Part shown: positions 9,477-27,885 of the stretch, one piece after another
Layout: each line of letters begins with the position of its first letter
Numbering within the stretch: the stretch's first letter is position 1
Source: a virus
Strand: one strand, 5' to 3'
Length of the DNA: 64,000 nt
IMG/VR virus record: IMGVR_UViG_3300028829_004335
The notes under the pieces: generated by a model
What the model was told of the DNA's origin: nothing
The model's database searches: none
Seen by the model: the letters and a program-made list of their open reading frames with translations, nothing else
Program-made: the position numbers and the translations under genes

Positions 9477-9477
9477 T

Positions 9478-11751
9478 ATGGAATTTTCAATAGAAACAAA
9501 AATATCAAATTTTATTGAAAATCAATTCCCTTCTTTTTATAGAGAAGAGGGACCTACTTTTATATTGTTTATGAAAGCATATTTTGAGTGGATGGAATCT
9601 AATGGAAATCCAATTTACCATTCAAGAAATCTTTTAAACTATGGTGACATTGATAATACTATAGATGATTTTTTAGTTCATTTTGAGAAAAAATATTTAT
9701 TTGGTATTCCATTTGAGACCGTTGTAAATAAAAGATTTATGATAAAGCACGTTTTAGATGCTTACAGATCAAAATCTAGTATACAGGGTCACAAATTACT
9801 ATTTAAACTTCTTTATAATTTAGATTCAGAAATATATATTCCTGGTAGAGATATATTAAAACCATCTGATGGAACTTGGAAAGAACCAAAATATTTAGAG
9901 GTTACTGATAATGGGAATTTGAATGATTTGGTTGGTAAAGAAATTGAAGGTTCTGAATCAGGAACTCTTGCAGTAGTAGAATCTTTTACAAAAGAATCTT
10001 TTGATTCTGACATTATTAACACATTGTTTATTTCAAACATTACACCAAAAAATCAAGACTTTACAATTGGTGAAGCAATTGTTCTAAAAGGACAAGCATC
10101 AAATACTTCTGCTATTACATCTGCACCTATTTTAAAAGGCTCTTTGAATGGTCTACAAATAATTAATGGTGGACAAAATTTTAAAGTAGGTAATATATTA
10201 AAAATAGTTAAAAGAGATTTGACAAATGATAATATTATTTCTTTTGGCCAAAATGGACTTTTAAGAGTTGCCAATGTTGGTAGAGGATTTGGAACTATAA
10301 ATTTTGATATTTTATCTGGTGGATTCGGGTATTTGTCAAACTCTTCTATATTTGTTTATAATGAAACAGACGATACTACTGGAACTGGTGCAGGATTTGA
10401 GCTAGATCAACTTACAAATCAACAATTAATAACATATAATACAGATGTGATTTGTAATTATTCTAATCTACAATTAGATGCAACTGCTTATGGGTTTCCT
10501 GGAGATGAGACTGCTAATTTAACATCAAATACTGGAACTGCTTTAACATTTATAACAGATATTTTTGGAACAGTATCAAAATTAAATAACATAACAACTG
10601 GTAATAATTACACAAACGCAACTATAAATTTTGTTAGATCTAATTTACTTTCAAATGGACTTCCTGGGTCTATAAGTTACACTGCTTCTTCAAATACCAT
10701 AACTGGAACTTCTACTATATTTGATTCTATATTTGCTGCAAACGATGTCATTCAAATTCAAGCAAATTCTTCTTTGAATGCTACACAAGAATTACAAGTA
10801 ATTAAAGAAGTAACAAACAGCACTCAAATAATTCTTTATGGTCCACCAGAGAATAGTTCCACAGCAAGTGCTGTATATAGAGCAGCACCTACAATATTGC
10901 CTGCTAATTTTGCTACATATGAAACTGTTATGGTAAGAGAAGATGAAACTTTAAACGGTGAAAATGAAAACATTAGAGGCTTGCCATCATCAGGAAATGA
11001 CATTGTTACTTCAGTGTCAATAGTTGATTCTGGTAAATCTTATTTAAATGGTGAAGATGTAGATTTATATTTACAGGGTGGATTGAGTAATGTTGTAATT
11101 AGCTCTGGTGGTTCTGGTTATCAAAATAATGAACTAGTTATTTTTTCTGGTGGTGGAACTCCAGATACAGCAAATGCAGTTGTAGGAACTGATAGTAATG
11201 GTTCTATAATAAATATTCTTTATAATGATAGAGGTTCGGGATATCAAACAACACCAACACTTACAGTGAGAACTTCTAATGGAACTGGTGCACTGTTGTC
11301 TGTAAATATAACAGAATTTAACATTGCAAGTCTTGTTGAAGGTAAAGTTACTAAAGGTGGTGTTGGTGTTGGTAGAGGTTTTTGGTCAACAACAAGAAGT
11401 CATTTAAGTTCTGATAAATTTATACAAGATAGTTATTTTTATCAAGATTTTTCTTATCAGATAAAAGTTCAAAAAATACTTGCTAAATACAAAGATATAA
11501 TAAAAGATACATTTCATTCTGCCGGTTCTGAATTATTTGGAGAGTTTGAACTTATACAAGACGTAAGTTCTAATATAGAATTATTACATAGTAGTAATAC
11601 AGCTGTAAAATCTTTTGATTATACTTCAGATTCTAGTATTTTACTAGCTGATAATAATGTTGTTACTGTGGACAGTTATACTTTCTTTGCTACTGCTGAT
11701 AGAACTTATACGGTTGATAGAATGTTACCATTAGCAGATTTTGTTTCTTAA
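9478..11751 (+). CDS. gp7: Baseplate wedge initiator (gp7-like) with inserted beta-rich domains
   Basis: ISNFIENQFPSFYREEGPTFILFMKAYFEWME...; C-terminal SSDKFIQDSYFYQDFSYQI...FHSAGSELFG. Confidence 0.75.
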   Translation: MEFSIETKISNFIENQFPSFYREEGPTFILFMKAYFEWMESNGNPIYHSRNLLNYGDIDNTIDDFLVHFEKKYLFGIPFETVVNKRFMIKHVLDAYRSKSSIQGHKLLFKLLYNLDSEIYIPGRDILKPSDGTWKEPKYLEVTDNGNLNDLVGKEIEGSESGTLAVVESFTKESFDSDIINTLFISNITPKNQDFTIGEAIVLKGQASNTSAITSAPILKGSLNGLQIINGGQNFKVGNILKIVKRDLTNDNIISFGQNGLLRVANVGRGFGTINFDILSGGFGYLSNSSIFVYNETDDTTGTGAGFELDQLTNQQLITYNTDVICNYSNLQLDATAYGFPGDETANLTSNTGTALTFITDIFGTVSKLNNITTGNNYTNATINFVRSNLLSNGLPGSISYTASSNTITGTSTIFDSIFAANDVIQIQANSSLNATQELQVIKEVTNSTQIILYGPPENSSTASAVYRAAPTILPANFATYETVMVREDETLNGENENIRGLPSSGNDIVTSVSIVDSGKSYLNGEDVDLYLQGGLSNVVISSGGSGYQNNELVIFSGGGTPDTANAVVGTDSNGSIINILYNDRGSGYQTTPTLTVRTSNGTGALLSVNITEFNIASLVEGKVTKGGVGVGRGFWSTTRSHLSSDKFIQDSYFYQDFSYQIKVQKILAKYKDIIKDTFHSAGSELFGEFELIQDVSSNIELLHSSNTAVKSFDYTSDSSILLADNNVVTVDSYTFFATADRTYTVDRMLPLADFVS

Positions 11752-14047: not shown

Positions 14048-17000
14048 ATGTCATCTTTAAAAACAAATTTTAATGTTTCTCCATATTTTGATGATTATGA
14101 TGAAGATAAGAATTTTTATAAAATTTTGTTTAGACCCTCTGTTGCTGTTCAAGCAAGAGAATTGACACAACTCCAAACAATTTTACAAAAACAAATTGAA
14201 AGATTTGGTAACAATGTTTTTAAAGATGGTACTATAGTTGATGGTGTTGCAATATTTTATTATCCAAATTTAGATTACATATCTATTGAAGACAAAATAT
14301 ATTTTGCAAATGGTGTAGAATCAACAGTTGTTCCTACTGATCTAAATGTTTACTCATTAGATCCTCAAACATATATTGTTACAAATTCAACAGATTCAAA
14401 TAATGCTGTTAGAGCAAATATTAAGTTAGCAAAAAGTGGATTAAAATCAACCGCACCAAATACTAATAGATTTTATCTTGATTATATAACTTTTGGTACA
14501 GATTCTTCTAACAATAAAGTTTCTACATTTTTACCAGGAGACACTCTTTACATATATTCTGAAAATCAAAATGAATTTGGAACATTAGACGCTAATAATT
14601 TATTATACACAACAAATACTATTGCTACAAATAGTAGTTTTACATCTAATGGACAATCTTATTCTGTAGGTGTTTCAGATGGTATAATTTTTCAAAAAGG
14701 ATTTTTTTCAAAAGTAGAACCACAGGTTGTAACTGTTAATGAATTTTCTACAAATGTAACAGGTTATGTTGTTGGTTTTGAGACAGCAGAAAATATTATA
14801 AACGACCAAGAAGATTTAAGTTTAACAGACAATGCTCTAGGATATCCTAATGAAAATGCTCCTGGTGCATATAGATTAAAATTAAATCCGACTTTAGTAT
14901 CAAAATTAAAAACAGACACATCAAATACTAACTTTTTTTCTATTGTAGAATTTGATTCAAATGAACCAACACAGCAAAGAGATATAACTGAATATAATGC
15001 TATTCAAAAAGAGTTAGCAAAAAGAACATATGAAGAATCTGGTGATTATTTTATTAAACCATTCACTGCTGAAACAAGAGTTAATTCTTCTAATTCACAA
15101 TCTTTCTTTTATGAAATGTCTTCTGGTATTGCTTATGTTCGTGGTAATAGAATAGAAAAAATATCCACCGTTAATGTTGAAGCAGATAGAGCAATAGCAA
15201 CTGAATTTGCGGAAAATCAGATTGTTACAGCAAATTATGGTAATTATGTCATATGTGATGAATTTGTGGGCGTTTTTGATACAGAACAACTTTCTGAAGT
15301 AACTCTTTACGATTCTCCACAAAATTCTATATCTGAATATGAAGGAAGTACATCAACTCCAGTTGGAACATCTGTTGGTAAAGCAAATGTTAGAGCAGTT
15401 TCGTTTGAAGAGGGCGTAAAGGGCAGTCCTACCGGAAAATATTATGTATACTTATTTAATATTCAAATGAATTCTGGAAAAAGTTTTTCCTCCGATGTAA
15501 AAAGTCTTTATATGTCTGGTTCTTTTGGTGATGCTAAAGCAGATATTGTATTGGAAGGTGGTATTGCTAAACTAAAAGACACAACTAAAAAATCTTCAGT
15601 GTTTGATAGTGGACTACTTGCAATAAAAAGATTAACAAATAATACTGGAATTGGTGATACAAACTTTACATATTCTCAGATAAAATCAGGTACTATAAAT
15701 GGGTCTGGTATATTAACAATATCACTTGACACTCCAGCAACTGGTGCTTCAACAGAAAGACTTAATCAATCTTCTGGTTCTGTGTTAACTGGTTCTTTAT
15801 TGGAAGAATATGATGTATTTTTATCAACGAATGCATATTCTGCTAACTTAACAGGAAATGTTTCTATAACTGCAGGTTCTTCTAGTGTTATAGGAGACGG
15901 TACAGATTTTACAAATGAACTAGCAGCAAACTCTAATATTAGAGTTTATGCAAACTCAACACAAACATATATAAAAAGAATTGTATCTATTGGGAATAGC
16001 ACATCTTTAACAGTGGATTCGTCATTTTCAGAATCTAATACAGCAAGTAAATTTGGTAAATATTTTGTCACAGGAACCCCATTACCACTTGCAAATGTTA
16101 CTATAAATTCTAATACCTCATTTTCTGCTAATTTGGGTTTAACATTGGATAGTGGTTCTCAAACCATTTATGCATCATATATTGTAAATAGAAACCAAGC
16201 AAACCCTATACCAAAAATAATAAATAAAAATAAATTTGTAAAAATTGATTGTAGTAATAATGTTGCTACTAGTGTAGGTCCTTGGGACTTAGGATTTTCT
16301 GAAGTTCATAAAATTAGAAATATTTATGTTGGTACGACATATGCAAACACAAATCCTAATAGAACAACTTGGTTTAATCTAGACAGAGGCAGCAGAGAAG
16401 ATGCATTAGAACATTCTAGATTATTTGTAAAACCTGAATATGCATCTAACATATCAGGATCTACTAAGTTTTTGATAGAATTAGACCACTTTACCGCAAA
16501 CACTTCTGCTTCAGTGGGATTCTTTTCTGTTGAATCATATCCTATAGATGATGTTAATACTGCAAATACAAATGCTATACAGACTATAGAATTACCAGTA
16601 GAAAACGAATCAGAAATAAGAAATTTTATTGATTTTAGATCAATAAAATCAAATACTGCGATTTCTTCTTCTACAGAAGGTTCTGCTACTATAAATCCAG
16701 CATTAAATACAAATAATTACGTTATACCAGCAACTGGACAACATATGATTGTTCCTGATAGTAATTTTGTAGCAGATTATGAATATTATTTGCCTAGAAG
16801 AGACATCATTACTATAAATCCAATTGGCGAGTTCATAGTAAACCAAGGTGTTCCATCAGAAATACCTCAAGCACCATTTGTTGAAAACGATCAAGTTTTA
16901 TTAAAAGAAACTTTTGTTCCACCATATCCTTCTGCTACAAGAAGAGAATATGAGACTTATAAGTCTTCTCAAGAAATAAAAATATTTGATAGGTCTAATC

Positions 17001-20000
17001 GTAGATATACTATGAAAGATATCGGAACAATAGATAGGAGACTAAAAAGACTTGAATATTATACAGTTCTAAATGCTCTTGAGCAAAAAGCAAAAGATTT
17101 AACTATACCTGATGTCAATGGTCTTGATAGATTTAAAAATGGTATATTTGCCGATCCATTCAATTCTCATAAAATAGGAAATGTTTCTGATTTTGAATAT
17201 AAAATTTCTATCGATAAAGATGAAACTGTAGCAAGACCTTTCTTTGAAAAACATAATATAGATTTTAAATTTACTCCAAACACATCCTCAGATTCTGTAA
17301 AGTCTTCTAATGTTAAAAGAAGAGGACCATTAGTATTATTAGACTATGAAGATGAAAGATATATATCACAAGAATTTTCAACAAAATATAGAGTTGTTGC
17401 AGAATCTGCTTGGCAATGGAACGGTATTGTAGATCTATATCCAAATTATGACTATTTTCAAGATGAAACAATTGTTCCTAATGTAAATGTAGATATTGAC
17501 CTATCAACACCCTGGGAACAATTTGCCGAATCTCCATTTGGAACCATTTTTGGTGATTGGAGAAATATTTCTAGCACTTCCAGAACAAGACTAATAGGTC
17601 AGGGTGTAACTACTACAACTTCAACAGTTCAAGAACAAATTATAAACGAACTGCAAGTAAATACTCTAACAGAGAATATAGACTTGGGTGCATATGTAAA
17701 AGATGTATCTCTAAATCCATATATGAGATCAAGAGTTGTTGCATTCTTAGCAAATGGTATGAAACCAAGGAGTAATATACACGTATTTTTTGACAATGTT
17801 AACGTTGATGAGCATTGTGCTCCTGGTGAATTATCTGGTTTGACTGAGCCACAAGAAGGTCTTGAAGATAGAATAGTAAACCAAGATGGAGAATACGGCA
17901 CACAATTAGTAGCAAATGAAAGCGGAACTGTTGTAGGTCTGTTTAGAATACCAGAAAGAACATTTAGAACTGGCGAAAGAGTTTTTGAATTAAATAATGT
18001 TAGAGATATTTCAGAAGGCGAAGATGCTAGATCAACTATCGCATTTACTACTTATATGGCAGAATCTATTTCTGTTACTAAAGGTTCTACAACACTTGTT
18101 GTGAGACAACCACAATTATCTACACTATCAACATCACAAAGAAGAACTTTAACTTCAACTCAAACTACATTTATTGCTAGAGAACCAGGTGATGGTGATG
18201 GTGATGGTGGTGATAGCGATCCTATGGCACAATCATTCACTATTGAAAACTTACCAGCCGAAATAACAGGAATATATTTAAATAGTGTTGGTTTATATTT
18301 TAGATATAAAGACAGAACTGTTGGATGTTCAGTTTTCATTTGTGAAATGGAAAATAATATGCCTGATCAATCTAGAATTATTGGACAGGCCCATTTAACA
18401 GAATCTGAAATATCTGTTTCTAGAGGACCTACTTTTGGAGAACCTTTAGTAGAGACCATTTTTGAATTAGATTTTCCAGTTTACTTAATGTCTAATAAAG
18501 ATTATGCTTTTATAGTTCAGCCAGATGGAGGGAGTCCAAATTATGCAATCTGGACTTGTGAGACTGGAGATTTTGATGTAACAACAGACCAACAAGTCTT
18601 TTCAAATCCATATTCTGGAATTATGTTTATCTCAGCAAACAGAAAAACTTGGACTGCTATTCAAAAAGAAGATATAACTTTTAATCTTTATAGAGCAAAG
18701 TTTAATCAATTAAATGGAAATGCTATATTTAAAAATGAAGATGATGAATATTTATCATTGGAAGGATTTACAAGAGCAAATACTTCATTAGGTATATCTG
18801 TCGGTGATGTTGTTCTTACTGTAAATGGTTCAATATCAACTCAAAATACTCTTAATATTTTTTCTAATACTCTAGCAAATTCAGTTTCTGGTAGAGTTCA
18901 ATACATTAATGAAGCAGAAGGTGAACTTTGGATAGATTCATCTACAGCAAACACTACAACATATTTCTCTAATACTGTAAATCCTGTTATAGCAGTATAT
19001 AGAATTGAAACAAGTAATACACAAGAATATCACTCATCTATTAGTGAATCAAAACTAATAGCGTATTCTAATGTTACTAGTGTTGATAACTTAAAATATC
19101 ACGCAGTAGTTCCAAAGTTTGGTGTTCTTCAGCCATCTAGAACAACTTTAACATATAATTTTAAAGGGACTTCAAATTCAAATATTACAGATTCTGCATA
19201 TCATAATGTTGTTAATGAATACGATTATCAATTTATTGACACTGAACGACACGCAATGTCTAAATCAAATGAAATAAATGATTTGTCATCAAACAAATCT
19301 TCAATTTTCGATGTTAATTTACAAAGCCAATCTGATTTAACTTCTCCTGCTATAAACTTATCTAGAAAATCTTCATTTTTTATTGAAAACTTGATTAATA
19401 ATGATTATACAGATGAACATACAAGATATGGTAATGCATTATCAAAATACATTTCTAAAAAAATAGTTTTAGCAGATGGACAAGAAGCAGAAGATTTAAA
19501 GGTTTATATGACTGCTTATAGACCTGCAGATACTGATGTTAAAGTTTATGCTAAATTCTGGAATGATCAAGATCCTCAAGAATTTAATGATAAGGTATGG
19601 ACAGAATTACAATATGATAATGGTGGAAGTTTTGTTTTCTCGTCACCAACAGATACGAGAAATTTTATAGAATATGAATTTTCTGTTCCAACTATAAATG
19701 CAGTTTCGTTTGGAGCATTTGCTAATGTGGGAGTTAATATATATAATCCATTGTCAGGTGGTGTATCAATAGAATCAAGTAATACTACTATATCAGCAAA
19801 AGAACACACTTTCAATGCTAATACTGATGTTAATAATTCTAATAATACTATTAATATAGCAGATGCTAATACATATTTTTCTGTTGGTGATGAAGTGATT
19901 TATAATGTTAATGCTGGAAATACTGCAATAACAGGTCTAACAGAAAATAATAAATATTATGTTTCTTTTTCTAACACAACACAAATGGCACTTTCAGAAT

Positions 20001-20386
20001 CAAGAACTGGTGCAAATATAGATATATCAGCAACATCTGTTTCTGAAACAGGACATTTCTTTACTGGAACATTCTTTACAGAAGATTTCACAGTTGGTGA
20101 TAGAATTAGAGTCGAATCAACTGATTACTTTGCAGTTAGAACTATAACTAATATTTCAAATAATACTAGTATGATAGTTGATAATGGATTAGAATCAACA
20201 AATACTGCTGCTGTATATTATGTGTTTGCATCTGGTGGTGGTGATGGTATAGTAGAATATGAAAACTCTGATGGATCTAGATTTGTAGGATATAAAGAAG
20301 TATCATTAAAAATAGTTCTACTATCATCTAATCCTGTAAGAGTTCCTAGATTAAATGATGTGAGAGGCATTTGTTTACAGGTATAA
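14048..20386 (+). CDS. Large virion structural protein, VrlC/DUF4815 family
   Basis: FNVSPYFDDYDEDKNFYKILFRP..AVQARELTQLQTILQKQIERFG...LAKRTYEESGDY...RLEYYTVLNALE...DRFKNGIF.D...SKYISKKIVLADGQEAEDLKVY...VPRLNDVRGICL. Confidence 0.85.
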   Translation: MSSLKTNFNVSPYFDDYDEDKNFYKILFRPSVAVQARELTQLQTILQKQIERFGNNVFKDGTIVDGVAIFYYPNLDYISIEDKIYFANGVESTVVPTDLNVYSLDPQTYIVTNSTDSNNAVRANIKLAKSGLKSTAPNTNRFYLDYITFGTDSSNNKVSTFLPGDTLYIYSENQNEFGTLDANNLLYTTNTIATNSSFTSNGQSYSVGVSDGIIFQKGFFSKVEPQVVTVNEFSTNVTGYVVGFETAENIINDQEDLSLTDNALGYPNENAPGAYRLKLNPTLVSKLKTDTSNTNFFSIVEFDSNEPTQQRDITEYNAIQKELAKRTYEESGDYFIKPFTAETRVNSSNSQSFFYEMSSGIAYVRGNRIEKISTVNVEADRAIATEFAENQIVTANYGNYVICDEFVGVFDTEQLSEVTLYDSPQNSISEYEGSTSTPVGTSVGKANVRAVSFEEGVKGSPTGKYYVYLFNIQMNSGKSFSSDVKSLYMSGSFGDAKADIVLEGGIAKLKDTTKKSSVFDSGLLAIKRLTNNTGIGDTNFTYSQIKSGTINGSGILTISLDTPATGASTERLNQSSGSVLTGSLLEEYDVFLSTNAYSANLTGNVSITAGSSSVIGDGTDFTNELAANSNIRVYANSTQTYIKRIVSIGNSTSLTVDSSFSESNTASKFGKYFVTGTPLPLANVTINSNTSFSANLGLTLDSGSQTIYASYIVNRNQANPIPKIINKNKFVKIDCSNNVATSVGPWDLGFSEVHKIRNIYVGTTYANTNPNRTTWFNLDRGSREDALEHSRLFVKPEYASNISGSTKFLIELDHFTANTSASVGFFSVESYPIDDVNTANTNAIQTIELPVENESEIRNFIDFRSIKSNTAISSSTEGSATINPALNTNNYVIPATGQHMIVPDSNFVADYEYYLPRRDIITINPIGEFIVNQGVPSEIPQAPFVENDQVLLKETFVPPYPSATRREYETYKSSQEIKIFDRSNRRYTMKDIGTIDRRLKRLEYYTVLNALEQKAKDLTIPDVNGLDRFKNGIFADPFNSHKIGNVSDFEYKISIDKDETVARPFFEKHNIDFKFTPNTSSDSVKSSNVKRRGPLVLLDYEDERYISQEFSTKYRVVAESAWQWNGIVDLYPNYDYFQDETIVPNVNVDIDLSTPWEQFAESPFGTIFGDWRNISSTSRTRLIGQGVTTTTSTVQEQIINELQVNTLTENIDLGAYVKDVSLNPYMRSRVVAFLANGMKPRSNIHVFFDNVNVDEHCAPGELSGLTEPQEGLEDRIVNQDGEYGTQLVANESGTVVGLFRIPERTFRTGERVFELNNVRDISEGEDARSTIAFTTYMAESISVTKGSTTLVVRQPQLSTLSTSQRRTLTSTQTTFIAREPGDGDGDGGDSDPMAQSFTIENLPAEITGIYLNSVGLYFRYKDRTVGCSVFICEMENNMPDQSRIIGQAHLTESEISVSRGPTFGEPLVETIFELDFPVYLMSNKDYAFIVQPDGGSPNYAIWTCETGDFDVTTDQQVFSNPYSGIMFISANRKTWTAIQKEDITFNLYRAKFNQLNGNAIFKNEDDEYLSLEGFTRANTSLGISVGDVVLTVNGSISTQNTLNIFSNTLANSVSGRVQYINEAEGELWIDSSTANTTTYFSNTVNPVIAVYRIETSNTQEYHSSISESKLIAYSNVTSVDNLKYHAVVPKFGVLQPSRTTLTYNFKGTSNSNITDSAYHNVVNEYDYQFIDTERHAMSKSNEINDLSSNKSSIFDVNLQSQSDLTSPAINLSRKSSFFIENLINNDYTDEHTRYGNALSKYISKKIVLADGQEAEDLKVYMTAYRPADTDVKVYAKFWNDQDPQEFNDKVWTELQYDNGGSFVFSSPTDTRNFIEYEFSVPTINAVSFGAFANVGVNIYNPLSGGVSIESSNTTISAKEHTFNANTDVNNSNNTINIADANTYFSVGDEVIYNVNAGNTAITGLTENNKYYVSFSNTTQMALSESRTGANIDISATSVSETGHFFTGTFFTEDFTVGDRIRVESTDYFAVRTITNISNNTSMIVDNGLESTNTAAVYYVFASGGGDGIVEYENSDGSRFVGYKEVSLKIVLLSSNPVRVPRLNDVRGICLQV

Positions 20387-20387
20387 T

Positions 20388-20573
20388 ATGAAAGAAACAG
20401 AAGATAGTTTTGTAAGAGACAATAATAATACAGGATGTGTTTTAAATACTGATAATAATGCTTTAAAAGCATATAAATTAAAAAAACAAAAAAATAAGGA
20501 AATAGATAATCTAAAAGAAGAAGTTAAAGATATAAAAAATATGTTAACTTTAATTTTAGAAAATATGAAATAA
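20388..20573 (+). CDS. Small coiled-coil protein commonly following the VrlC-like gene
   Basis: FVRDNNNTGCVLNTD...EIDNLKEEVKDIKNMLTLIL. Confidence 0.65.
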   Translation: MKETEDSFVRDNNNTGCVLNTDNNALKAYKLKKQKNKEIDNLKEEVKDIKNMLTLILENMK

Positions 20574-20592
20574 TTTTATTGAGATTTATGAT

Positions 20593-21261
20593 ATGAATAA
20601 AAATGATATTTCTGCATTTGCTATACCAATTAGATATGGTATGTTAAATGTTAATGATTTGAATAAAAAATTAATAGAAGATATATTTTTAGAATTGAAT
20701 AATAACGGAAACGAAAAAAGAAGTGGTGTAGGTGTTTATCAAACCAAATCTGGTTTAGAAAAAAAATATGAAAGTTTTAAAACTCTTTCTGAAAAAATTA
20801 AATATTTTTTGTTAGATTTTATGAAGAATGTTAAAGTATACGATGAGTTTTTTATTAAAGATGTATGGGGCAATATTAATAATGATCCATTTGCTTTTCA
20901 TATGCCTCATTCACATGGTATAAATAATTCTTGTATTTTTACTGGAGTTTATTTTCCTACCTCTGGGTATCTTGATAATGATATATCAAAAGAATGTAAT
21001 AATTCTAAGTCTCCTATAATTACATCTAAAACACAACCAAATCCTGGAGATTTAGTTTTATTAGATCCAAATGAAAATATAAAAACGGCAATAGCAACTA
21101 AAAAAACTGAAAAATATCCTTTTTTTGGAAATCCTATTTGTATAACTCCTATTAAAAATACTATAGTTGTTTTTCCGTCTTATTTGAATCATATGGTTAC
21201 ACCATCCAAGAAAGAAAATTATACTAGAATAAGTATAGCATATAATGTGAGTGTTTTATGA
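20593..21261 (+). CDS. 2OG-Fe(II) oxygenase superfamily protein (TIGR02466-like)
   Basis: VWGNIN...HMPHSH...TGVYFP...VVFPSYLNHMVTP...RISIAYN: His metal ligands and the 2OG-binding Arg. Confidence 0.8.
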   Translation: MNKNDISAFAIPIRYGMLNVNDLNKKLIEDIFLELNNNGNEKRSGVGVYQTKSGLEKKYESFKTLSEKIKYFLLDFMKNVKVYDEFFIKDVWGNINNDPFAFHMPHSHGINNSCIFTGVYFPTSGYLDNDISKECNNSKSPIITSKTQPNPGDLVLLDPNENIKTAIATKKTEKYPFFGNPICITPIKNTIVVFPSYLNHMVTPSKKENYTRISIAYNVSVL

Positions 21262-22745
21262 GAATTTTATCTGCTGCTTTAGTAAACCATGATACTAATT
21301 TTTGTTTTTATGATAACGGAAAAATTAAATATCATAAATTAGAAAGAACAAAACAAGAAAAAAGATATGTTCTTTATCCTATACAGAGATGGAAAAAAGA
21401 AGTTGAAAATTTATGGAATATAAAAATTGATGAAATTGACGATATTATATTTCAATTTGATCCATATACTATGTTACCAAACCATTTGAAAAATAAAATA
21501 TTTAATTCAGATTTTTTACAAAAATTAGATAGTGATGTTTGTTCTTATCTTGGAGTAAAAAGTGCTTGGTTTATAGGCCATCATTATTCACATGCAAAAA
21601 GCACTTGGATGATGGAAGATAAAAAAAGTGATATACAAATTGTTATTGATGGTCTTGGAGATGGTAGACCTTGGACCATATATAAAGATAATGAAATTTT
21701 AGATTTTGGTGATATAAAAAAAGGATCAATAGGATGGGGAATGAGAGATGCTGGTAAATTTTTGGGAATAAGAGCAATACACCAAAATGATATAGCAGGA
21801 AAACTTATGGGTCTACAATCATATGGTAATGTTGATTATGATTTTTTAAATAAACTTTCTATCTATAATATGGACGATATTAATACAATATTTGATAAGT
21901 CATTGTGGAAAAATGAATCATCATATATTGACTGGATAAGAACTATTCATTTTAAGATTGGAAATTTGCTTGTAGATTTTTTTAAAAAATATACTAATAA
22001 ATATGATATAATTTCATATTCTGGTGGTGTTGCGCAAAATGTTGTTTGGAATACACAACTAAAAAACAATTTTCCAAATATTATAATACCACCACATTCT
22101 TCTGATGAAGGGATTAGTTTAGGTGCTATAAAAGTTTTACTTGATTATCATGGTATAACTATTTCAAAAATAAATAATTTTCCTTATTGTCAATCAGATA
22201 TTGCACCACCAAAATCACCGTCTGATAAAACTATTGATAGGATAGTTGAACTTTTATCAAATAATAAAACTGTAGGTGTTTATTTTGGTAATGGTGAAAT
22301 AGGACCACGAGCACTTGGAAATAGATCTATATTAATGAACCCTAAAATAAAAAATGGTAAAAACAAAATAAATGACATAAAAAATAGAGAATACTATAGA
22401 CCTTTTGGTGCAGTAATTTTAGAAAAATATTTTGATAAATATTTTAATGGTTTTGCTGATGAATATATGTTATACACATCTGAATTTAAAAATAGTTCTT
22501 ATGTGTATGATTCTATATCTCACATAGATAATACTTGTAGATTACAAATATGTAAAGATGGTAATATGAAAAAAATATTAGAAAAGTTTAATGAAAAAAC
22601 AGGTTGTTCAATGTTATTGAACACTAGTTTAAATTTATCGGGTAAACCAATAGCAGGGTATCCACAAGATGCCTTTTCTTTATTTAAAAGTTCTAATTTA
22701 GATTGTGTCGTTATTGGAGATAAAATATATGAAAGTAAATTTTGA
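21258..22745 (+). CDS. O-carbamoyltransferase, NodU/CmcH family
   Basis: HDT, HHYSHA, DGLGD, AGKLMGL, SGGVAQN, DEGISLGA, GPRALGNRSIL, KNREYYRPFG, SHIDNTCRLQ, LLNTSLN..G.PI. Confidence 0.92.
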   Translation: MRILSAALVNHDTNFCFYDNGKIKYHKLERTKQEKRYVLYPIQRWKKEVENLWNIKIDEIDDIIFQFDPYTMLPNHLKNKIFNSDFLQKLDSDVCSYLGVKSAWFIGHHYSHAKSTWMMEDKKSDIQIVIDGLGDGRPWTIYKDNEILDFGDIKKGSIGWGMRDAGKFLGIRAIHQNDIAGKLMGLQSYGNVDYDFLNKLSIYNMDDINTIFDKSLWKNESSYIDWIRTIHFKIGNLLVDFFKKYTNKYDIISYSGGVAQNVVWNTQLKNNFPNIIIPPHSSDEGISLGAIKVLLDYHGITISKINNFPYCQSDIAPPKSPSDKTIDRIVELLSNNKTVGVYFGNGEIGPRALGNRSILMNPKIKNGKNKINDIKNREYYRPFGAVILEKYFDKYFNGFADEYMLYTSEFKNSSYVYDSISHIDNTCRLQICKDGNMKKILEKFNEKTGCSMLLNTSLNLSGKPIAGYPQDAFSLFKSSNLDCVVIGDKIYESKF

Positions 22746-22761
22746 ATTAGAAGAATATAAA

Positions 22762-23340
22762 ATGTCAAATAAACAATATATCTCTAAAATAATTTCAGAA
22801 CAATGTGTTGAAAAAGCAGATGGTTATTTCTTTGGAAAAATGCCAGGAACTAGATATTCTTCTCAATTTTATTTATCAAGAGCACTATATAATACTGATT
22901 TTTTAAATTGTGTAGCGGAAGAATTTTATAAAATAGTTGAAAATGAAATAGGAAATTTTGAATTTCAGATTACAGGACAAGAGTTTTCATCAATACCTCT
23001 CTTAGTTTCAATTCCTATTTTATTAGAAAAAAAATATGACATTAAATTAAATTCTTTTATGATTAAAAATGAAAGAAAAACATATGGCATACATAACTAT
23101 ATTGAGGGAAATACTTTAGATTTGCCTGTTCTTATTATAGGAGAAATGTGTAATTCTACCAATACATTTTTACATTGTCATAATGTATTAAAATATCAAA
23201 AATTTGTCATTTTACCTTATATTTTTGCAGTTCTAAATAAATATGGGTCTAAGTTTCCAAATTGGAACTCTGAAGATAGATATTTAAAAAGAGATTTTAA
23301 ACCATTGACAATTTTAAATAGAGATGATTTGAAAATATGA
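22762..23340 (+). CDS. PyrE-like phosphoribosyltransferase paralog lacking the PRPP-binding DD motif
   Basis: GQEFSSIPL...KNERKTYGIHNYIEG...VLIIGEMCNSTNT aligns with the next gene. Start uncertain (22705, 22729 or 22762). Confidence 0.65.
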   Translation: MSNKQYISKIISEQCVEKADGYFFGKMPGTRYSSQFYLSRALYNTDFLNCVAEEFYKIVENEIGNFEFQITGQEFSSIPLLVSIPILLEKKYDIKLNSFMIKNERKTYGIHNYIEGNTLDLPVLIIGEMCNSTNTFLHCHNVLKYQKFVILPYIFAVLNKYGSKFPNWNSEDRYLKRDFKPLTILNRDDLKI

Positions 23341-24047
23341 TAGAGTCTGAAAAAAAGTTAGAAATCAAAAATAAAATACAAAAATTTATAGATGAAGATT
23401 GTATTTTTAGGTGCAATCCTGAGATTGAATATGTCCCTAAACATATAAAAGGAGTTATTCCAGGAAAATATAAAGATAATAAATATCAATTTTTTCTGAG
23501 AAAACTTTCACATAATTCTACTATGCTTTATTATAGTAGTTTATTGTTGTTAGATGAGATTTTATTAAGATATGTTCAAGAAGAAAAAGAACCATATTTT
23601 CAATTGTGTGGATTAGAAACTGGATCTTTACCTTTAATTACTGGAATTCAACAAAATGCTTTAAAATTTAATATAAATATTAATAGTTTTTCTGTTAGGA
23701 AGAATAGAAAATCTTATGGTCTTTTTAATTTTGTAGAGGGCATCCCAACAGATGCTCCAGTAATTATAGTAGATGACTTGATAAATAGTGGTGGTAGTTG
23801 TTTTAGATGCTTAGATGTGTGTAAATATGAATTAGGATTAGAAGTTGTGAATGAGTTTTATTCAATAATGACTTTTCTTGACGACCCATATCGTATTAAT
23901 TTTAAAGATATTGATTATACTATAAATTCTTTATTTGTAAAAAGTGATTTTGATTTAAATTATGATCCTGATAAATATTGGATTCCAGATGATTGTGATA
24001 AGAGTATAAATAAAAGACCAGAGTATCAACAGGGAATTCTTTATTAG
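23337..24047 (+). CDS. Type I (orotate PRTase-like) phosphoribosyltransferase
   Basis: GLETGSLPL...VRKNRKSYG..NFVEG...VIIVDDLINSGGS. Confidence 0.8.
   Translation: MIESEKKLEIKNKIQKFIDEDCIFRCNPEIEYVPKHIKGVIPGKYKDNKYQFFLRKLSHNSTMLYYSSLLLLDEILLRYVQEEKEPYFQLCGLETGSLPLITGIQQNALKFNININSFSVRKNRKSYGLFNFVEGIPTDAPVIIVDDLINSGGSCFRCLDVCKYELGLEVVNEFYSIMTFLDDPYRINFKDIDYTINSLFVKSDFDLNYDPDKYWIPDDCDKSINKRPEYQQGILY
24005..24012 (+). promoter_or_regulatory. Late promoter restarting structural transcription after the enzyme module
   Basis: Exact TATAAATA 57 nt upstream of the ATG at 24070. Confidence 0.5.
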
Positions 24048-24069: not shown

Positions 24070-24843
24070 ATGACAATAACAGTAGCAAATACAGCAAACA
24101 CTAATACATTTGACTATTGGAGAAATAGAACAAATGAACTAGCAGATGCTATGACAAATAAAACAGTAACAGTAGATTCTAATACTGCTACTGGTAATGC
24201 TGCTATTACTGGAACATTTTCAGCAAATGTTTTATTTTTAGGCAACACCACAGTAAACTCAACCTCAAACTCTACCTCTATCACATTTGGAAATACTGTA
24301 CAAAATACTGTTGTCAATACTTCTTCTATCACATTTGGAAATACTGTACAAAATACTGTTGTCAATACTTCTTCTATCACATTTGGAAATACTGTACAAA
24401 ATACTGTTGTCAATACTTCTTCTATCTTTATATCAAACTCTACATCAAACTTAACTATTTCAATACCTACAACATCTCAGTATGCAAATGGTAAGTTTTT
24501 TCTAAATGCAAATGGTTCATTTACTTTAGTTGAAGCCTCTATTAAGGGAAATATTGAAACTTCTGGAACAACAAATACAGAAATCAATAACTATTTAACA
24601 AATACATTCGCATCAGCAGAATATTTGCTTGCTGTAAAAGATAATAACGCTAATAATTATCAGTCTTCTAAAATATTAATTACTCACGATGTAGATAATG
24701 CATATTTGTCTGAATATGCAATAATAGTTTCAAATAACTATGTTGGTTCATTTTTTGCAAATTCAAACACATCTCATGTTAGATTATATTTTAATCCAAC
24801 ATCAACAAACACCACTATTAACTTTACAAGAGTTGAAGCATAA
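24070..24843 (+). CDS. Virion structural/fibre protein with 16-aa repeats
   Basis: N-terminal TNTFDYWRNRTNELA anchor; C-terminal SAEYLL.V.D....YQSSKILITHD...SEYA domain. Confidence 0.7.
   Translation: MTITVANTANTNTFDYWRNRTNELADAMTNKTVTVDSNTATGNAAITGTFSANVLFLGNTTVNSTSNSTSITFGNTVQNTVVNTSSITFGNTVQNTVVNTSSITFGNTVQNTVVNTSSIFISNSTSNLTISIPTTSQYANGKFFLNANGSFTLVEASIKGNIETSGTTNTEINNYLTNTFASAEYLLAVKDNNANNYQSSKILITHDVDNAYLSEYAIIVSNNYVGSFFANSNTSHVRLYFNPTSTNTTINFTRVEA
24277..24426 (+). repeat. Three perfect 48-bp tandem repeats (SITFGNTVQNTVVNTS)
   Basis: tctatcacatttggaaatactgtacaaaatactgttgtcaatacttct at 24277, 24325 and 24373, plus a 6-nt partial copy. Confidence 0.95.
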
Positions 24844-25176: not shown

Positions 25177-27885
25177 ATGAAATTTTATGTTGAAAGTGTT
25201 GTAAATAAATCTGATTTAGAAGATGATTTTACAATAGAAGAAAATGTTTTCTTTCAAGATGAAAAAATTGTTATTATTGATAATATGGAATATCACTTAA
25301 ACCATGGTGATATTGTTATTTGTGAAGATAAAAAATATTTCATAAATCCCTTTGACATAACAACAGATTCTTTTAAATATGAAATAGATAATATTTGGAA
25401 TTTAAAAGAAGATAACATTCCCCCTAAAAATAATAAAAAATATTTACTAATTGTTCCAGAGAATGAATATTCTGGACAATCTTTATTGTTTACTGAATAT
25501 AATAATAAAATTATAAAAAGAAATGAAAATGGTTCTACTGAAGTATATAATAATTCCACAAATGAATATTTTTTAAAAGAAGAACAGGTTGTTGTTTCTT
25601 ATGAGGGTGGATCTTTAGTTCCAGTTGAAAGAAAACATATACCATTAATTTTAGAAACAAATATAAAAAATGAAAAATTATTTGAGACTATAGAAAGAGG
25701 TGAACAGGGTCCACAGGGTATTCCAGGTAAAGATGGTATTCAAGGTCCTAAAGGTACTCCTGGTAAAGATGGTATTCAAGGTCCAAAAGGTGATACAGGT
25801 GAACAAGGTCCAAAAGGTGATACAGGCGAACAAGGCCCACAGGGTATTCCAGGCAAAGATGGCAGCCAAGGACCACAAGGTATCCCAGGTAAAGATGGTA
25901 TTCAAGGTCCAAAAGGTGATACTGGAGAACAAGGTCCAAAAGGTGATACTGGAGAACAAGGTCCAAAAGGTGATACTGGAGAATCAGGAGCAAGTGCAGA
26001 TAATGAACTTATAAAACAAATTGAAAAACAATTTAATAAGTTTCAAGAGAACGATAAAGAATATAGACAAAAATTAAATGCACAATTATCAACTCTTGGT
26101 GGAGGTGGTTCTACTCAATTACTAGATAATGATGATGTAATCTACAAACCAATTTCTACATTATCAAATAATACTATCCTATTCTATACAAATACTGATA
26201 AAAAATTCAAAACTATTACATTACAACAAGCTGTTACAGATGCAGGTATTTCTACAGGTGGTGGTGGAGGAATATCATTAACTGATTTAAGTGTAACAAA
26301 AAATGCAGTTGGAACAGCAAATCTCAGTTATGATAATACTACTGGAGTTTTTAGTTATACACCACCTGATTTAACATCATATCTAACTACAGTATCTTTT
26401 GGTGATTTAACAAGTACACCAACAACAATTTCTGGATATGGTATTACAGATGCCTTTGATGGTGATTATAATAGTTTATCAAATCAACCAACAATTCCAA
26501 CTGTTTTAGATTCGGTTACAAATACATCTATTACACTTGTAGCAGCTGCAAACTCAGTAAAAACTGCATATGATAGTGCTATTGATGCAAATACAAGAGC
26601 TGCTAGTGCTCAAACAGAAGCATCAAGTGCTTATTCAAATGCAGTTTCTTATACTGATACCCAATTAACAAATTATCAAACAGAAGCTGGTTTATCTGCT
26701 AATGTTGCTACACTAACATCTAATAATTCATTATTCTTAGGTGGAGTTGCTGCAGCTGATTATCAAACTGAAGCAGGTTTATCTGCTAATGTTGCTACTT
26801 TAGCTGCTAATTCTGCAACATATTTAAATGGAAATACTGCAAGTGATTTAAGGTCTTATTCTGATACAACATCTGCTACTGCATATTCTAATGCAGTTTC
26901 TTATACTGATACAGAATTAGCTAATTATCAAACGGAAGCAGGACTGGCATCCAATGTTGCCACTTTAACATCTAATAATTCTGATAATTTAGGTGGAGTT
27001 GCTGCTGCATCATATGCACAATTAGCATCACCAACATTTACTGGAACATTGAGTGCAACAAATGTTACTTTAAATAGTGGTCAATTAACTATTAATTATA
27101 CTTCAACAACAAATCCTGCACTTTCTATTGTATCCACTGAAGATGGTTCTGCTGCATCACCAGAAATAGAATTATACAAAAATTCAGCAACACCTGCAAA
27201 TGGTGATTATCTTGGTCAAATAAAATTTGTAGGTGAAAGTGACACTGGAGTAAAAAGAAACTTTGCTAAAATTACTGGTAAAGTTTCTGATGTTACAAAT
27301 AATAGTGAAGATGGTTTAATAGAAACTGCAATACATAAAGCTGGTTCATTAACAATTGTTTCTAGACAAACCCATTCTGATTTGAAATTGATAAATGGAA
27401 CAGGATTGGAAGTTGATGGTAATGCAGGATTTGGTGGTAATACTACACCTTCTCACGCTATTCGTGCTGATGGTGATATAAGTTTAAACGGTGGTATTCA
27501 CGCAAATGGTTCTTTGGGTACTGATGGACAAATTCTTAAAAGTAATGGATCTGTATCATATTGGGGAACTGAAAATCAAACAATTTCAGTAACCACTACT
27601 GGAACAGATGCACAAGATGTTGATATATTTGCTATTGATACATATAGAACTGCAAAATATACTTATTCCGTAACTGATAATAATGCAAATGCATACCAAA
27701 TTGGTGAAATAATGACTGTTTTTGATGGAACAAATGGACTTATGAATGAATATGGTGTGGTTTACTCTAATACTCAATTTGTCAATTTTTCTGTAACTGC
27801 AAATGCTACACATAATATATTACAAGTAACTCCTACATCATCAAACACTACAATAAAATTCAAAAAAAGTTTGTTAGAAGTGTAA
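25177..27885 (+). CDS. Collagen-like fibre protein
   Basis: 33 Gly-X-Y triplets, then QLSTLGGGG, coiled-coil-like [14 protein letters not shown] repeats and a C-terminal domain shared with the 24070 protein. Confidence 0.8.
25699..25995 (+). repeat. Collagen Gly-X-Y repeat region
   Basis: [12 protein letters not shown] ... GES GAS (33 triplets); near-perfect 27-bp units ggtccaaaaggtgatactggagaacaa from 25906. Confidence 0.95.

What the first reader, a model, noticed from the sequence alone, without database searches (positions are those of the whole stretch)
20593..24047. Four-gene chemical modification module (2OG oxygenase + carbamoyltransferase + two PRTases) inserted among virion genes
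Seen: four same-strand ORFs, two junctions with ATGA overlaps, AT-rich (two hand-counted 60-nt lines gave 22% GC). They sit between the VrlC-like baseplate gene and the fibre genes, with a TATAAATA at 24005 restarting structural expression. Established: 2OG-Fe(II) oxygenases hydroxylate; NodU/CmcH enzymes carbamoylate hydroxyls; phage carbamoyltransferases have been reported acting on hydroxymethylcytosine; type I PRTases transfer phosphoribose from PRPP. Inference: a hydroxylate-carbamoylate-ribosylate pathway. Late-operon placement points to decoration of virion proteins or glycans; a DNA or nucleotide hypermodification is the alternative. I know of no described pathway with this exact combination.
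Basis: partly seen in the sequence, partly recalled or inferred. Interest (0 to 1): 0.85.

Follow-up and report, generated by a model that had tools for sequence, protein, structure and literature searches.

The report
Two enzyme pairs in marine phage
A widespread marine T4-like phage carries four intact enzyme genes between its baseplate and tail-fibre genes. Comparison with relatives shows two separable two-gene units, not one proven four-step pathway: a hydroxylase plus carbamoyltransferase pair that recurs in many marine phages, and a pair of diverged orotate-phosphoribosyltransferase-like paralogs. Their targets are unknown.

Summary
Four same-strand ORFs lie at 20593-24047: a PF13759 2OG-Fe(II) oxygenase, a NodU/TobZ-type carbamoyltransferase (CT), and two paralogous OPRT-like type I PRTases (PRTa, PRTb). 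Two junctions overlap as ATGA, and GC is 24-26% against 31.6% for the window.

The single hydroxylate-carbamoylate-ribosylate pathway is only partly supported.
- **PRT pair stands alone.** It sits after the DUF4815 gene without 2OG/CT, or between gp45 and gp44. One complete 163-kb genome has the pair but no CT and no PF13759/PF13640 oxygenase.
- **CT has no PRT neighbour elsewhere.** None of 80 other phage CT loci has a PRT within 4 kb, but 35 of 80 have an adjacent 2OG oxygenase, usually overlapping by 4 nt.
- **CT can be lost.** A near-identical relative keeps 2OG and both PRTs beside an in-frame 42-codon CT remnant.
- **The order is derived.** On the PRTb tree the four-gene order is one well-supported subclade, conserved down to about 50% identity.

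Best reading: two modules in a variable slot. A predicted PRTa:PRTb heterodimer acts on an unknown base, and a hydroxylase-carbamoyltransferase pair acts on an unknown acceptor; the oxygenase fold is closest to prolyl hydroxylases, not TET/JBP. The scan's first-stage readers had noted 2OG-CT pairs on other phage DNA before.

The parts
14048..20386 (+). 2112-aa DUF4815 giant structural protein; upstream anchor of the variable slot
   Evidence: PF16075 1e-51; phrog_358; it precedes the slot in L005, L009, L012-L016, L067, L070, L154 and L155
20388..20573 (+). 61-aa gene always paired with the DUF4815 gene (PHROG 'virion structural protein')
   Evidence: phrog_473 1.8e-6; 46-98% identical homologue after DUF4815 in all slot-S loci
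20593..21261 (+). 2OG-Fe(II) oxygenase of the PF13759/TIGR02466 family, with an HxH...H...RxS motif (H106, H108, H200, R212)
   Evidence: invariant residues in 29 homologues; model pLDDT 90.6, nearest solved folds 3bvc/2rg4 and then prolyl 4-hydroxylases
21258..22745 (+). NodU/CmcH/TobZ-type O-carbamoyltransferase (Kae1-like N domain plus YrdC-like C domain); start overlaps the 2OG stop (ATGA)
   Evidence: HHxxH, DGxG and GPRALGxRS invariant in 28 homologues
22762..23340 (+). PRTa: OPRT-like type I PRTase paralog. Its PRPP-loop acidic dyad is G-E here but D-D in 9 of 14 orthologues. An alternative GTG start lies at 22705
23337..24047 (+). PRTb: OPRT-like type I PRTase with an intact RKxRKxYG loop and VIIVDDLINSGGS PRPP loop, plus conserved N- and C-terminal extensions
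24005..24012 (+). T4-type late-promoter-like TATAAATA inside the PRTb 3' end, 65 nt before the fibre-module gene
24070..24843 (+). first fibre-module gene downstream of the slot (257 aa, no family); downstream anchor
25177..27885 (+). 902-aa tail fibre with a collagen-like G-X-Y array (GPK-G, GIP-G). It is a conceivable but untested hydroxylation target

Best explanation
The stretch is a variable accessory slot in the tail module of a widespread marine T4-like myovirus. The slot lies between the DUF4815 gene with its 61-aa companion and the fibre genes. In this lineage it holds two separable two-gene enzyme modules that came to lie side by side.

Module 1 is PRTa plus PRTb, paralogs that arose by duplication of a single-copy phage PRTase. 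They most likely form an OPRT-like (pseudo)symmetric heterodimer. It would use PRPP to phosphoribosylate a pyrimidine-type base for phage nucleotide supply. PRTb carries the fully intact active site; the acidic dyad of PRTa is eroding in some lineages, including this one.

Module 2 is the PF13759 oxygenase plus the carbamoyltransferase, a translationally coupled pair. The oxygenase would install a hydroxyl, and the carbamoyltransferase would O-carbamoylate it through carbamoyl-AMP. The acceptor is unknown.

Shown: gene families, paralogy, synteny patterns, separability of the modules and the deletion remnant. Inferred: heterodimer formation, the substrates and the order of reactions.
For: Separability. 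The PRT pair without 2OG or CT sits after DUF4815 in L005, L009/L016, L015 and L014 (two tandem pairs). It sits between gp45 and gp44 in L007 and L018-L025. The complete 163-kb genome G002 has the pair but no PF16861, PF13759 or PF13640. None of 80 CT loci has a PRT within 4 kb. CT homologues occur in 135 cultured phage records, while PRTb relatives occur in only 3, at <=27% identity and not adjacent. L013 keeps 2OG, PRTa and PRTb intact beside an in-frame 42-codon CT remnant, and its PRTb is nearly identical to that of the four-gene locus L070. L155 has the 2OG alone in the slot.

Module 2 is real. A 2OG oxygenase is the top Pfam family on both sides of CT: 10 PF13759 plus 9 PF13640 of 74 upstream neighbours, and 10 plus 11 of 75 downstream. 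35 of 80 loci have an adjacent 2OG. Adjacent slots hold one in 44 of 150 cases against 66 of 475 at positions +-2 to 5 (OR 2.6, p 4e-5). 91% of the gaps are <=10 nt. The pairing recurs with a different 2OG family in an unrelated phage (L072).

Module 1. The paralogy is clear. Single-copy PRTs form the outgroup, pairs between gp45 and gp44 are basal, and the four-gene clade is derived at 100/99 support. The complex model scores ipSAE 0.64 against a best control of 0.00; that mark was reached by 58 of 80 solved complexes and 2 of 110 mismatched pairs. The PRTa dyad is DD in 9 of 14, GE in 2, GD in 1 and DG in 2. Catalytic motifs of CT and of the oxygenase are invariant.

Occurrence. The stretch is present in marine and estuary metagenomes of at least 9 studies, and one contig spans 20333-23996 at 98.4% identity.
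Against: The four-gene order is retained in six distinct lineages down to about 50% amino-acid identity, with tight or overlapping junctions (window/L012, L070/71, L068/69, L154, L067). That is what a functional operon would also look like.

Two short contigs appear to hold 2OG and a PRT without room for CT.

No substrate is established for any of the four enzymes. Both PRTs score far below the PyrE cut-off, so 'nucleotide supply' rests on fold class and on the ancestral position in the replication module.

The heterodimer prediction may reflect memory of solved OPRT homodimers, and it does not exclude homodimers.

Most compared loci are contig fragments, so absence of a gene from a locus does not show absence from that genome. 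G002 is the exception.
Confidence: 0.55

Rival explanations
1. One four-step pathway makes a modified nucleotide or DNA base. The oxygenase hydroxylates a pyrimidine methyl group, as thymine 7-hydroxylase or TET/JBP enzymes do. The CT carbamoylates the hydroxymethyl group. The PRT heterodimer loads the modified free base onto PRPP so that it enters the phage nucleotide pool.
For: Four-gene synteny is conserved to about 50% identity in one clade. A phage CT that carbamoylates 5hmC in DNA and 5hmdCTP is published (PMC8670742). The PRT pair ancestrally sits in the replication module. The genome is very AT-rich.
Against: The PRT pair works without CT or any PF13759/PF13640 oxygenase in the complete genome G002. 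80 CT loci lack PRTs. CT was lost while the other three genes were kept. The oxygenase fold is nearest to prolyl hydroxylases, not TET/JBP. The published 5hmC-CT co-occurs with thymidylate-synthase-like genes, which did not appear among CT neighbours here. A PRTase would give a ribonucleotide, which needs reduction before use in DNA.
Confidence: 0.12
2. Virion decoration. The oxygenase hydroxylates Pro or Lys in a structural protein, for example the collagen-like fibre encoded 1.1 kb downstream, and the CT O-carbamoylates the new hydroxyl. The PRTs are unrelated, or add phosphoribose.
For: The genes lie in the late tail module, and a late-promoter-like site occurs only after the island. The oxygenase fold is nearest to protein prolyl hydroxylases: P. 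putida P4H, PHD2 and OGFOD1. The downstream fibre has X-Lys-Gly and X-Pro-Gly repeats. A metatranscriptome-library contig bridges the DUF4815 3' end, the 61-aa gene and the 2OG start.
Against: Across 80 phage loci, the neighbours of the 2OG-CT pair are typical auxiliary genes (regA, halogenase, radical SAM, nucleotidase), not structural genes. Relatives with collagen-like fibres lack 2OG and CT (L009/L016). O-carbamoylation of hydroxy-amino acids in proteins is not an established modification (own knowledge). The RNA-library contigs may be DNA carry-over.
Confidence: 0.1
3. The PRT pair is a counter-defence or pool-manipulating device rather than a biosynthetic enzyme. It might consume or sense PRPP, or detoxify a base analogue. 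The 2OG-CT pair is an unrelated tailoring pair.
For: The pair is mobile between genome positions, tandemly duplicated in L014, highly divergent, and exchanged as a cassette between near-identical backbones in L015. These are traits common to accessory and anti-defence genes. Distant relatives are fused to PQQ-type beta-propellers, radical SAM, AMMECR1 or HlyC domains and weakly match PRTase-CE. PRTase domains act as defence effectors in ShosTA and in retron Eco11 (PMC12961424; PMC12746101, title and abstract only).
Against: There is no PADLOC match and no known anti-defence family. Catalytic residues of PRTb are invariant across the family, which fits a working transferase. The ancestral position is between the sliding-clamp and clamp-loader genes.
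Confidence: 0.13

Closest known systems
Orotate phosphoribosyltransferase (PyrE) and the 'pyrE/PRTase' auxiliary genes of cyanomyoviruses (P-SSM7 PSSM7_159, P-SSM5 PRTG_00072)
   Same: Type I PRTase fold. The RK..K.YG flexible loop and the acidic-dyad PRPP loop are present. OPRTs are dimers in which the loop of one subunit serves the neighbour's site. The cyanophage copies also sit beside clamp-loader and replication genes.
   Different: Only 27% identity to the cyanophage genes. The pyrE equivalog score is 28-38 bits against a cut-off of 106.8. Family-specific N-terminal (CIFRCNP) and C-terminal (KYWxPxDCDKSxNKRPEY) extensions are present. The gene is duplicated into a conserved PRTa/PRTb pair, with dyad erosion in PRTa.
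NodU/CmcH/TobZ O-carbamoyltransferases and the 'Nol-like carbamoyltransferase' of marine T4-like phages (phrog_1601; Sullivan et al. 2010, PMC3037559)
   Same: Two-domain architecture and invariant metal and nucleotide motifs; 33-37% identity to the cyanophage enzymes.
   Different: It is shorter (495 aa) than TobZ or NovN. Its acceptor is unknown. Here it is tightly coupled to a 2OG oxygenase, a pairing not described in the papers read.
Phage 5-hydroxymethylcytosine carbamoyltransferase (Yang et al. 2021, eLife, PMC8670742)
   Same: Same enzyme superfamily in a phage, acting on a hydroxyl made by a partner enzyme.
   Different: In that system the partner is a thymidylate-synthase-like dCMP hydroxymethylase, with MazG-like and deaminase neighbours. 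Here and in 35 of 80 marine phage loci the partner is a 2OG oxygenase, and no thymidylate synthase appeared among the immediate neighbours.
PF13759/TIGR02466 2OG-Fe(II) oxygenases of cyanophages and pelagiphages; prolyl 4-hydroxylases (PPHD, PHD2)
   Same: Family membership. These are multi-copy, sporadically distributed auxiliary genes (PMC3037559, PMC9599517). The double-stranded beta-helix fold is closest to P4H-type enzymes.
   Different: The metal motif is HxH...H rather than HxD/E...H. No substrate is known for the family. The ferrochelatase partnering reported for pelagiphage oxygenases is not seen here.

Membership tests
Type I phosphoribosyltransferase (PRTb) | PRT core fold with a PRPP-binding loop: hydrophobic strand, acidic dyad, then a small-residue phosphate loop | tested here: met
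   VIIVDDLINSGGS is present; D146 and D147 are invariant in 21 homologues. The model has pLDDT 89.8 and its best hits are OPRT/APRT structures.
Type I phosphoribosyltransferase (PRTa) | Acidic dyad of the PRPP loop | tested here: not met
   The window has G-E (VLIIGEMCNSTNT). Orthologues have DD in 9 of 14, GE in 2, GD in 1 and DG in 2. The rest of the fold motifs are conserved, and pyrE gives 32.5 bits.
Orotate phosphoribosyltransferase PyrE (TIGR00336 equivalog) | Score above the curated cut-off (106.8 bits) | tested here: not met
   27.8 bits for PRTb, 32.5 bits for PRTa, and 30-38 bits for relatives.
Orotate phosphoribosyltransferase PyrE | Flexible catalytic loop with conserved Lys/Arg residues (RKE.K.HG type) | tested here: met
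   R121, K122, R124, K125 and G128 are invariant or nearly so in PRTb. R105, K106, Y108 and G109 are conserved in PRTa. The loop aligns to the human OPRT loop.
Orotate phosphoribosyltransferase PyrE | Activity on orotate | not testable with these tools
   Needs an enzyme assay.
NodU/CmcH/TobZ O-carbamoyltransferase | Carbam_trans_N and Carbam_trans_C domains above Pfam cut-offs, with metal-binding HHxxH and DGxG and the YrdC-like GPRALGxRS motif | tested here: met
   44.6 bits (cut-off 24) and 154.9 bits (cut-off 27). H108, H109, H112, D131, G132, G134 and G349-S357 are invariant in 28 sequences. TobZ, NovN and GdmN match at 1e-24 to 1e-29.
5hmC carbamoyltransferase system (Yang et al. 2021) | Co-location with a thymidylate-synthase-like dCMP hydroxymethylase | tested here: inconclusive
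   No such gene lies next to CT in the window, in the four-gene relatives or among the immediate neighbours in 80 CT loci. The window's whole genome is not held, so a distant copy cannot be excluded.
2OG-Fe(II) oxygenase, PF13759 (TIGR02466) | Pfam score above the gathering cut-off, and the 2OG-binding RxS motif | tested here: met
   35.3 bits against 27. R212 is invariant and S214 nearly so. TIGR02466 gives 39.5 bits, below its cut-off of 62.5.
2OG-Fe(II) oxygenase superfamily | Canonical HxD/E...H facial triad | tested here: not met
   The invariant residues are H106-x-H108 ... H200, so His replaces the carboxylate. Metal and 2OG dependence are therefore inferred, not shown.
TET/JBP nucleic-acid base hydroxylases | Closest fold or sequence relatives are TET/JBP or AlkB | tested here: not met
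   The top PDB hits are 3bvc and 2rg4, then prolyl hydroxylases. ALKBH homologues appear only at ranks 4 and 23 in Swiss-Prot models, and no TET/JBP appears in the rows shown.
Single co-inherited four-gene pathway cluster | The four families co-occur and move together across genomes | tested here: not met
   They co-occur only in one subclade. Elsewhere each module occurs alone, and CT has been deleted in L013.

The most novel reading that the evidence does not exclude
Tightly coupled 2OG-oxygenase plus carbamoyltransferase pairs, present in roughly four of ten phage carbamoyltransferase loci, make a hitherto undescribed hydroxylate-then-O-carbamoylate modification of a macromolecule. The target could be a protein residue such as hydroxy-Lys or hydroxy-Pro of a collagen-like fibre, or a nucleobase. 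In this clade the module would have been recruited next to a heterodimeric PRTase, so that all four genes cooperate in one new hypermodification route.
Probability: 0.12. Interest if true: 0.85.

Novelty: new variant of a known kind. Interest (0 to 1): 0.55.

Why it matters
2OG oxygenases, carbamoyltransferases and PRTases are among the most frequent unexplained 'host-like' genes of abundant ocean phages. This analysis turns a one-off gene cluster into two testable units.

The first is an oxygenase-carbamoyltransferase pair whose recurrent translational coupling across many marine phages points to a shared two-step chemistry with an unknown target. That target could be a new phage modification of DNA or protein.

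The second is a duplicated PRTase whose subunits are predicted to pair and in which one active site is decaying. It is a natural case of an enzyme and near-pseudoenzyme heterodimer evolving in viruses.

The natural CT-deletion variant (L013 against L070) offers a ready-made comparison for finding the product.

Tried and rejected
- **Defence families.** PADLOC models gave nothing meaningful for any of the four proteins.
- **NAD+ reconstitution.** NARP1/2/3 was considered for the PRTases and dropped. Those systems use Nampt-like, PRPP-synthetase-like or NadR/PnuC proteins, not OPRT-like ones.
- **ShosT-type toxin PRTase.** There is no sequence link.
- **Nearest held record.** G001 is a 23.8-kb fragment without the locus, and the window's own genome is not held.
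- **Searches that found little.** A scan with the single CT protein found only the near-identical contig; an alignment was needed. DNA-level search of cultured phages found only a short conserved CT segment.
- **Pfam on the PRTs.** It gives no hit for the PRTs or for single-copy relatives.
- **Cluster names.** Names for distant PRT fusions were uninformative.
- **5hmC-CT residues.** The differential residues W408, G421 and R423 of the 5hmC-CT paper could not be used, because the text does not say which states mark the modifying clade.
- **Promoter and terminator scans.** Counts were at chance level.
- **Joints in metagenome contigs.** Some suggest island-less variants, for example 20571 joined to 24067. 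They rest on short sides at 85% likeness and are not relied on.

Full report
**What the window is.** The window is part of a T4-like myovirus of the marine 'far-T4' group. Its major capsid protein is 64-70% identical to those of Pelagibacter phage Mosig, Methylophilales phage Melnitz and Stenotrophomonas phage DLP6. Baseplate wedge genes, a 2112-aa DUF4815 protein and fibre genes surround the finding. The four-gene stretch itself occurs, near-identical, in marine, seawater and estuary metagenomes of at least nine independent studies. One 3664-nt contig from a 2024 seawater run spans 20333-23996 at 98.4% identity. This is therefore a common environmental phage, not an assembly oddity.

**The observation.** All four ORFs exist as described, with ATGA stop/start overlaps at 21258 and 23337. 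Their GC is 24-26% against 31.6% for the window.
- ORF1 is a PF13759/TIGR02466 2OG-Fe(II) oxygenase.
- ORF2 is a two-domain NodU/CmcH/TobZ-type carbamoyltransferase (CT) with all metal and nucleotide motifs invariant.
- ORF3 (PRTa) and ORF4 (PRTb) have no Pfam hit, but they are paralogs (30% identity, E 4e-18) of the orotate-PRTase branch of type I PRTases.
  - pyrE TIGR00336 gives 28-32 bits, far below its cut-off.
  - A family profile hits OPRT structures.
  - The PRTb model (pLDDT 89.8) matches OPRTs best.
- PRTb has the intact VIIVDDLINSGGS loop, whereas PRTa reads VLIIGEMCNSTNT.
- The TATAAATA at 24005 lies within the codons for the conserved DKSINKRP motif of PRTb.
  - A TATAAATA or ATAAATA sits in or just behind the PRTb 3' end in relatives that have the pair at this slot, except L067.
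  - It is absent where the pair lies elsewhere, which fits a late promoter for the fibre genes.

**Is it one module? The PRT pair.** PRTb has 34 clusters of relatives in metagenomes and 48 loci in IMG/VR. I labelled the neighbours of these loci by similarity to window genes and found three patterns.
- DUF4815, a roughly 60-aa gene, PRTa, PRTb and then the fibre genes, with no oxygenase or CT (L005, L009/L016, L015). L014 has two tandem pairs.
- gp45, PRTa, PRTb, gp44, inside the replication module (L007, L018-L025).
- More distant single-copy PRTs at other places (L026-L059).

The complete, terminally redundant 163-kb genome G002 has the pair between gp45 and gp44. It contains no carbamoyltransferase and no PF13759 or PF13640 oxygenase. 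The PRT pair is thus a self-sufficient unit.

**The four-gene order.** It is not unique to the window. It recurs in L012 (97-99% identity), L070/L071 (CT 80%), L068/L069 (CT 68%), L154 (oxygenase 57%) and L067 (CT 52%, PRTb 50%). On a PRTb tree all of these fall in one clade with 100/99 support. That clade also holds L013 and the PRT-only locus L005. It is nested among the other 'after DUF4815' lineages. The gp45/gp44 lineages are basal and the single-copy PRTs form the outgroup. The simplest history has four steps:
1. a single PRT was duplicated in the replication module;
2. the pair moved to the tail-module slot;
3. one lineage gained the oxygenase and CT in front of it;
4. that arrangement was then inherited vertically.

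**Loss of CT.** L013 has a PRTb almost identical to that of L070, yet it lacks CT. The first 28 and last 13 codons of CT remain fused in frame, apparently by deletion between AATTAGA/ATTTAGA near-repeats. The oxygenase and both PRTs remain intact. L155 carries the oxygenase alone in the slot. L015 shares 93-99% identical flanks with the window, but its DUF4815, 61-aa gene and PRT block is only 50-55% identical. The whole block is therefore exchanged by recombination.

**The oxygenase-CT pair.** CT homologues occur in 135 cultured phage records, mostly cyanomyoviruses, in very different places. They have long been listed among sporadic cyanophage genes (PMC3037559). I fetched 80 further viral CT loci at 28-49% identity.
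- None has a PRT homologue within 4 kb.
- A 2OG oxygenase is the most frequent Pfam family immediately upstream (10 PF13759 plus 9 PF13640 of 74) and immediately downstream (10 plus 11 of 75).
- With an iterated profile, 35 of 80 loci have an adjacent oxygenase.
- Adjacent positions are enriched over positions +-2 to 5: 44 of 150 against 66 of 475, odds ratio 2.6, p 4e-5.
- 42 of 44 adjacent oxygenases are co-oriented with CT, and 91% are separated by at most 10 nt, most often by a 4-nt overlap.
- In L072/L073 a CT of an unrelated phage is preceded by a PF13640 oxygenase.

The scan's first-stage readers had flagged such pairs on other phage DNA many times. The papers I read do not describe the pairing.

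**What the enzymes may act on.** The oxygenase model (pLDDT 90.6) is closest to two uncharacterised PF13759 proteins of marine roseobacters. Next come protein prolyl hydroxylases (P. putida PPHD, PHD2, OGFOD1). It is not closest to TET/JBP or AlkB enzymes. Its invariant metal motif is HxH...H with an RxS 2OG motif. This leans weakly away from a TET-like DNA route. The published 5hmC carbamoyltransferase pairs with a thymidylate-synthase-like hydroxymethylase, and no such gene appeared next to CT here. A collagen-like fibre with X-Lys-Gly and X-Pro-Gly repeats lies 1.1 kb downstream. However, 2OG-CT pairs elsewhere sit among auxiliary genes rather than structural ones, and relatives with collagen-like fibres lack the pair. 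The acceptor therefore remains open.

**The PRT pair as a heterodimer.** A complex model scores ipSAE 0.64 against a best control of 0.00. That mark was reached by 58 of 80 solved complexes and 2 of 110 mismatched pairs. The interface is of the symmetric OPRT type. This pass may reflect memory of solved OPRT homodimers. PRTa keeps DD in 9 of 14 orthologues but reads GE, GD or DG in the others. That fits a dimer in which one site has become dispensable. The base substrate cannot be read from the sequence. Distant relatives of the family (1841 clusters at E<=1e-3) include fusions to PQQ-type propellers, radical SAM, AMMECR1 and HlyC domains, so roles beyond plain pyrimidine salvage are possible.

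**Expression.** Contigs from two marine metatranscriptome libraries match the DUF4815 3' end, the 61-aa gene, the oxygenase and CT almost perfectly. None was seen for the PRTs. DNA carry-over cannot be excluded and contigs carry no level information, so this is only a hint that the first half of the island is transcribed in nature.

**Verdict.** The best reading is two separable two-gene modules in a recombination-prone slot of the tail module, conserved together in one subclade. A genuine four-gene pathway is not excluded (about 0.12). Neither is virion decoration by the oxygenase-CT pair (about 0.1), nor a counter-defence role for the PRT pair (about 0.13). The gene families are known auxiliary genes of marine phages. 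Two things appear undescribed: the recurrent, tightly coupled oxygenase-CT pairing, and the duplicated, probably heterodimeric PRTase with a decaying site.

Noticed in passing
L015:2696-10723 and L014 compared with window 14048-24047: Contigs whose baseplate and fibre flanks are 93-99% identical to the window carry a DUF4815, 61-aa gene and PRT-pair block that is only 50-55% identical. A roughly 9-kb cassette is exchanged between otherwise near-identical phages, and the right-hand breakpoint lies inside the last ~60 nt of PRTb.
   Followed up: partly
L014:7430-8745 and 9418-10717: Two tandem PRTa-PRTb pairs in one phage contig. The two pairs are diverged from each other (different branches of the PRTb tree).
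   Followed up: partly
L009:730-7230, L155:1-5809: DUF4815 giant proteins of relatives carry a weak Hom_end_hint (intein-like) Pfam hit, and NUMOD3 homing-endonuclease genes flank the locus. Mobile elements seem to target this gene.
   Followed up: no
L066 (Synechococcus phage S-SCSM2R) 3361-5093: A more distant phage carbamoyltransferase (annotated there as '2OG-Fe(II) oxygenase') is preceded by an annotated wcaG RNA motif. It is followed by sugar epimerases and glycosyltransferases, so this CT clade looks glycan-directed.
   Followed up: no
proteins P0266, P0278, P0286, P0306, P0322, P0284: Distant relatives of the phage PRT family (E about 1e-25) are fused to PQQ/BamB-type beta-propellers, to an HlyC acyltransferase, to a radical SAM domain or to AMMECR1. 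Some weakly match Pfam PRTase-CE. Their function is unknown.
   Followed up: partly
window 25700-26000 (collagen-like array of the 902-aa fibre): Repeats such as GPKGDTGEQ and GIPGKDGIQ form the collagen-like part of the fibre. The array length differs between the window and L012 (repeat-number variation seen as shifted DNA matches).
   Followed up: no
window, 15 TATAAATA sites: 14 of 15 sites are on the + strand, and about ten lie 15-80 nt upstream of gene starts (1286, 7601, 13969, 24005, 27903, 35450, 45469, 49683, 50759 and others). This is consistent with T4-type late promoters, although the total count is at chance level for this AT-rich DNA.
   Followed up: partly
window 20571/24067 and 21341/22566 (joints in run X13): Metagenome contigs hint at relatives in which the whole island, or only CT, is missing or replaced. 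The evidence rests on short flanks at 85% likeness and needs read-level checking.
   Followed up: no
CT loci L074-L153: Besides 2OG oxygenases, the neighbours of phage carbamoyltransferases include radical SAM/SPASM proteins, tryptophan halogenases, cupins, DUF6071 and DUF6450. This looks like a set of natural-product-style tailoring enzymes.
   Followed up: no
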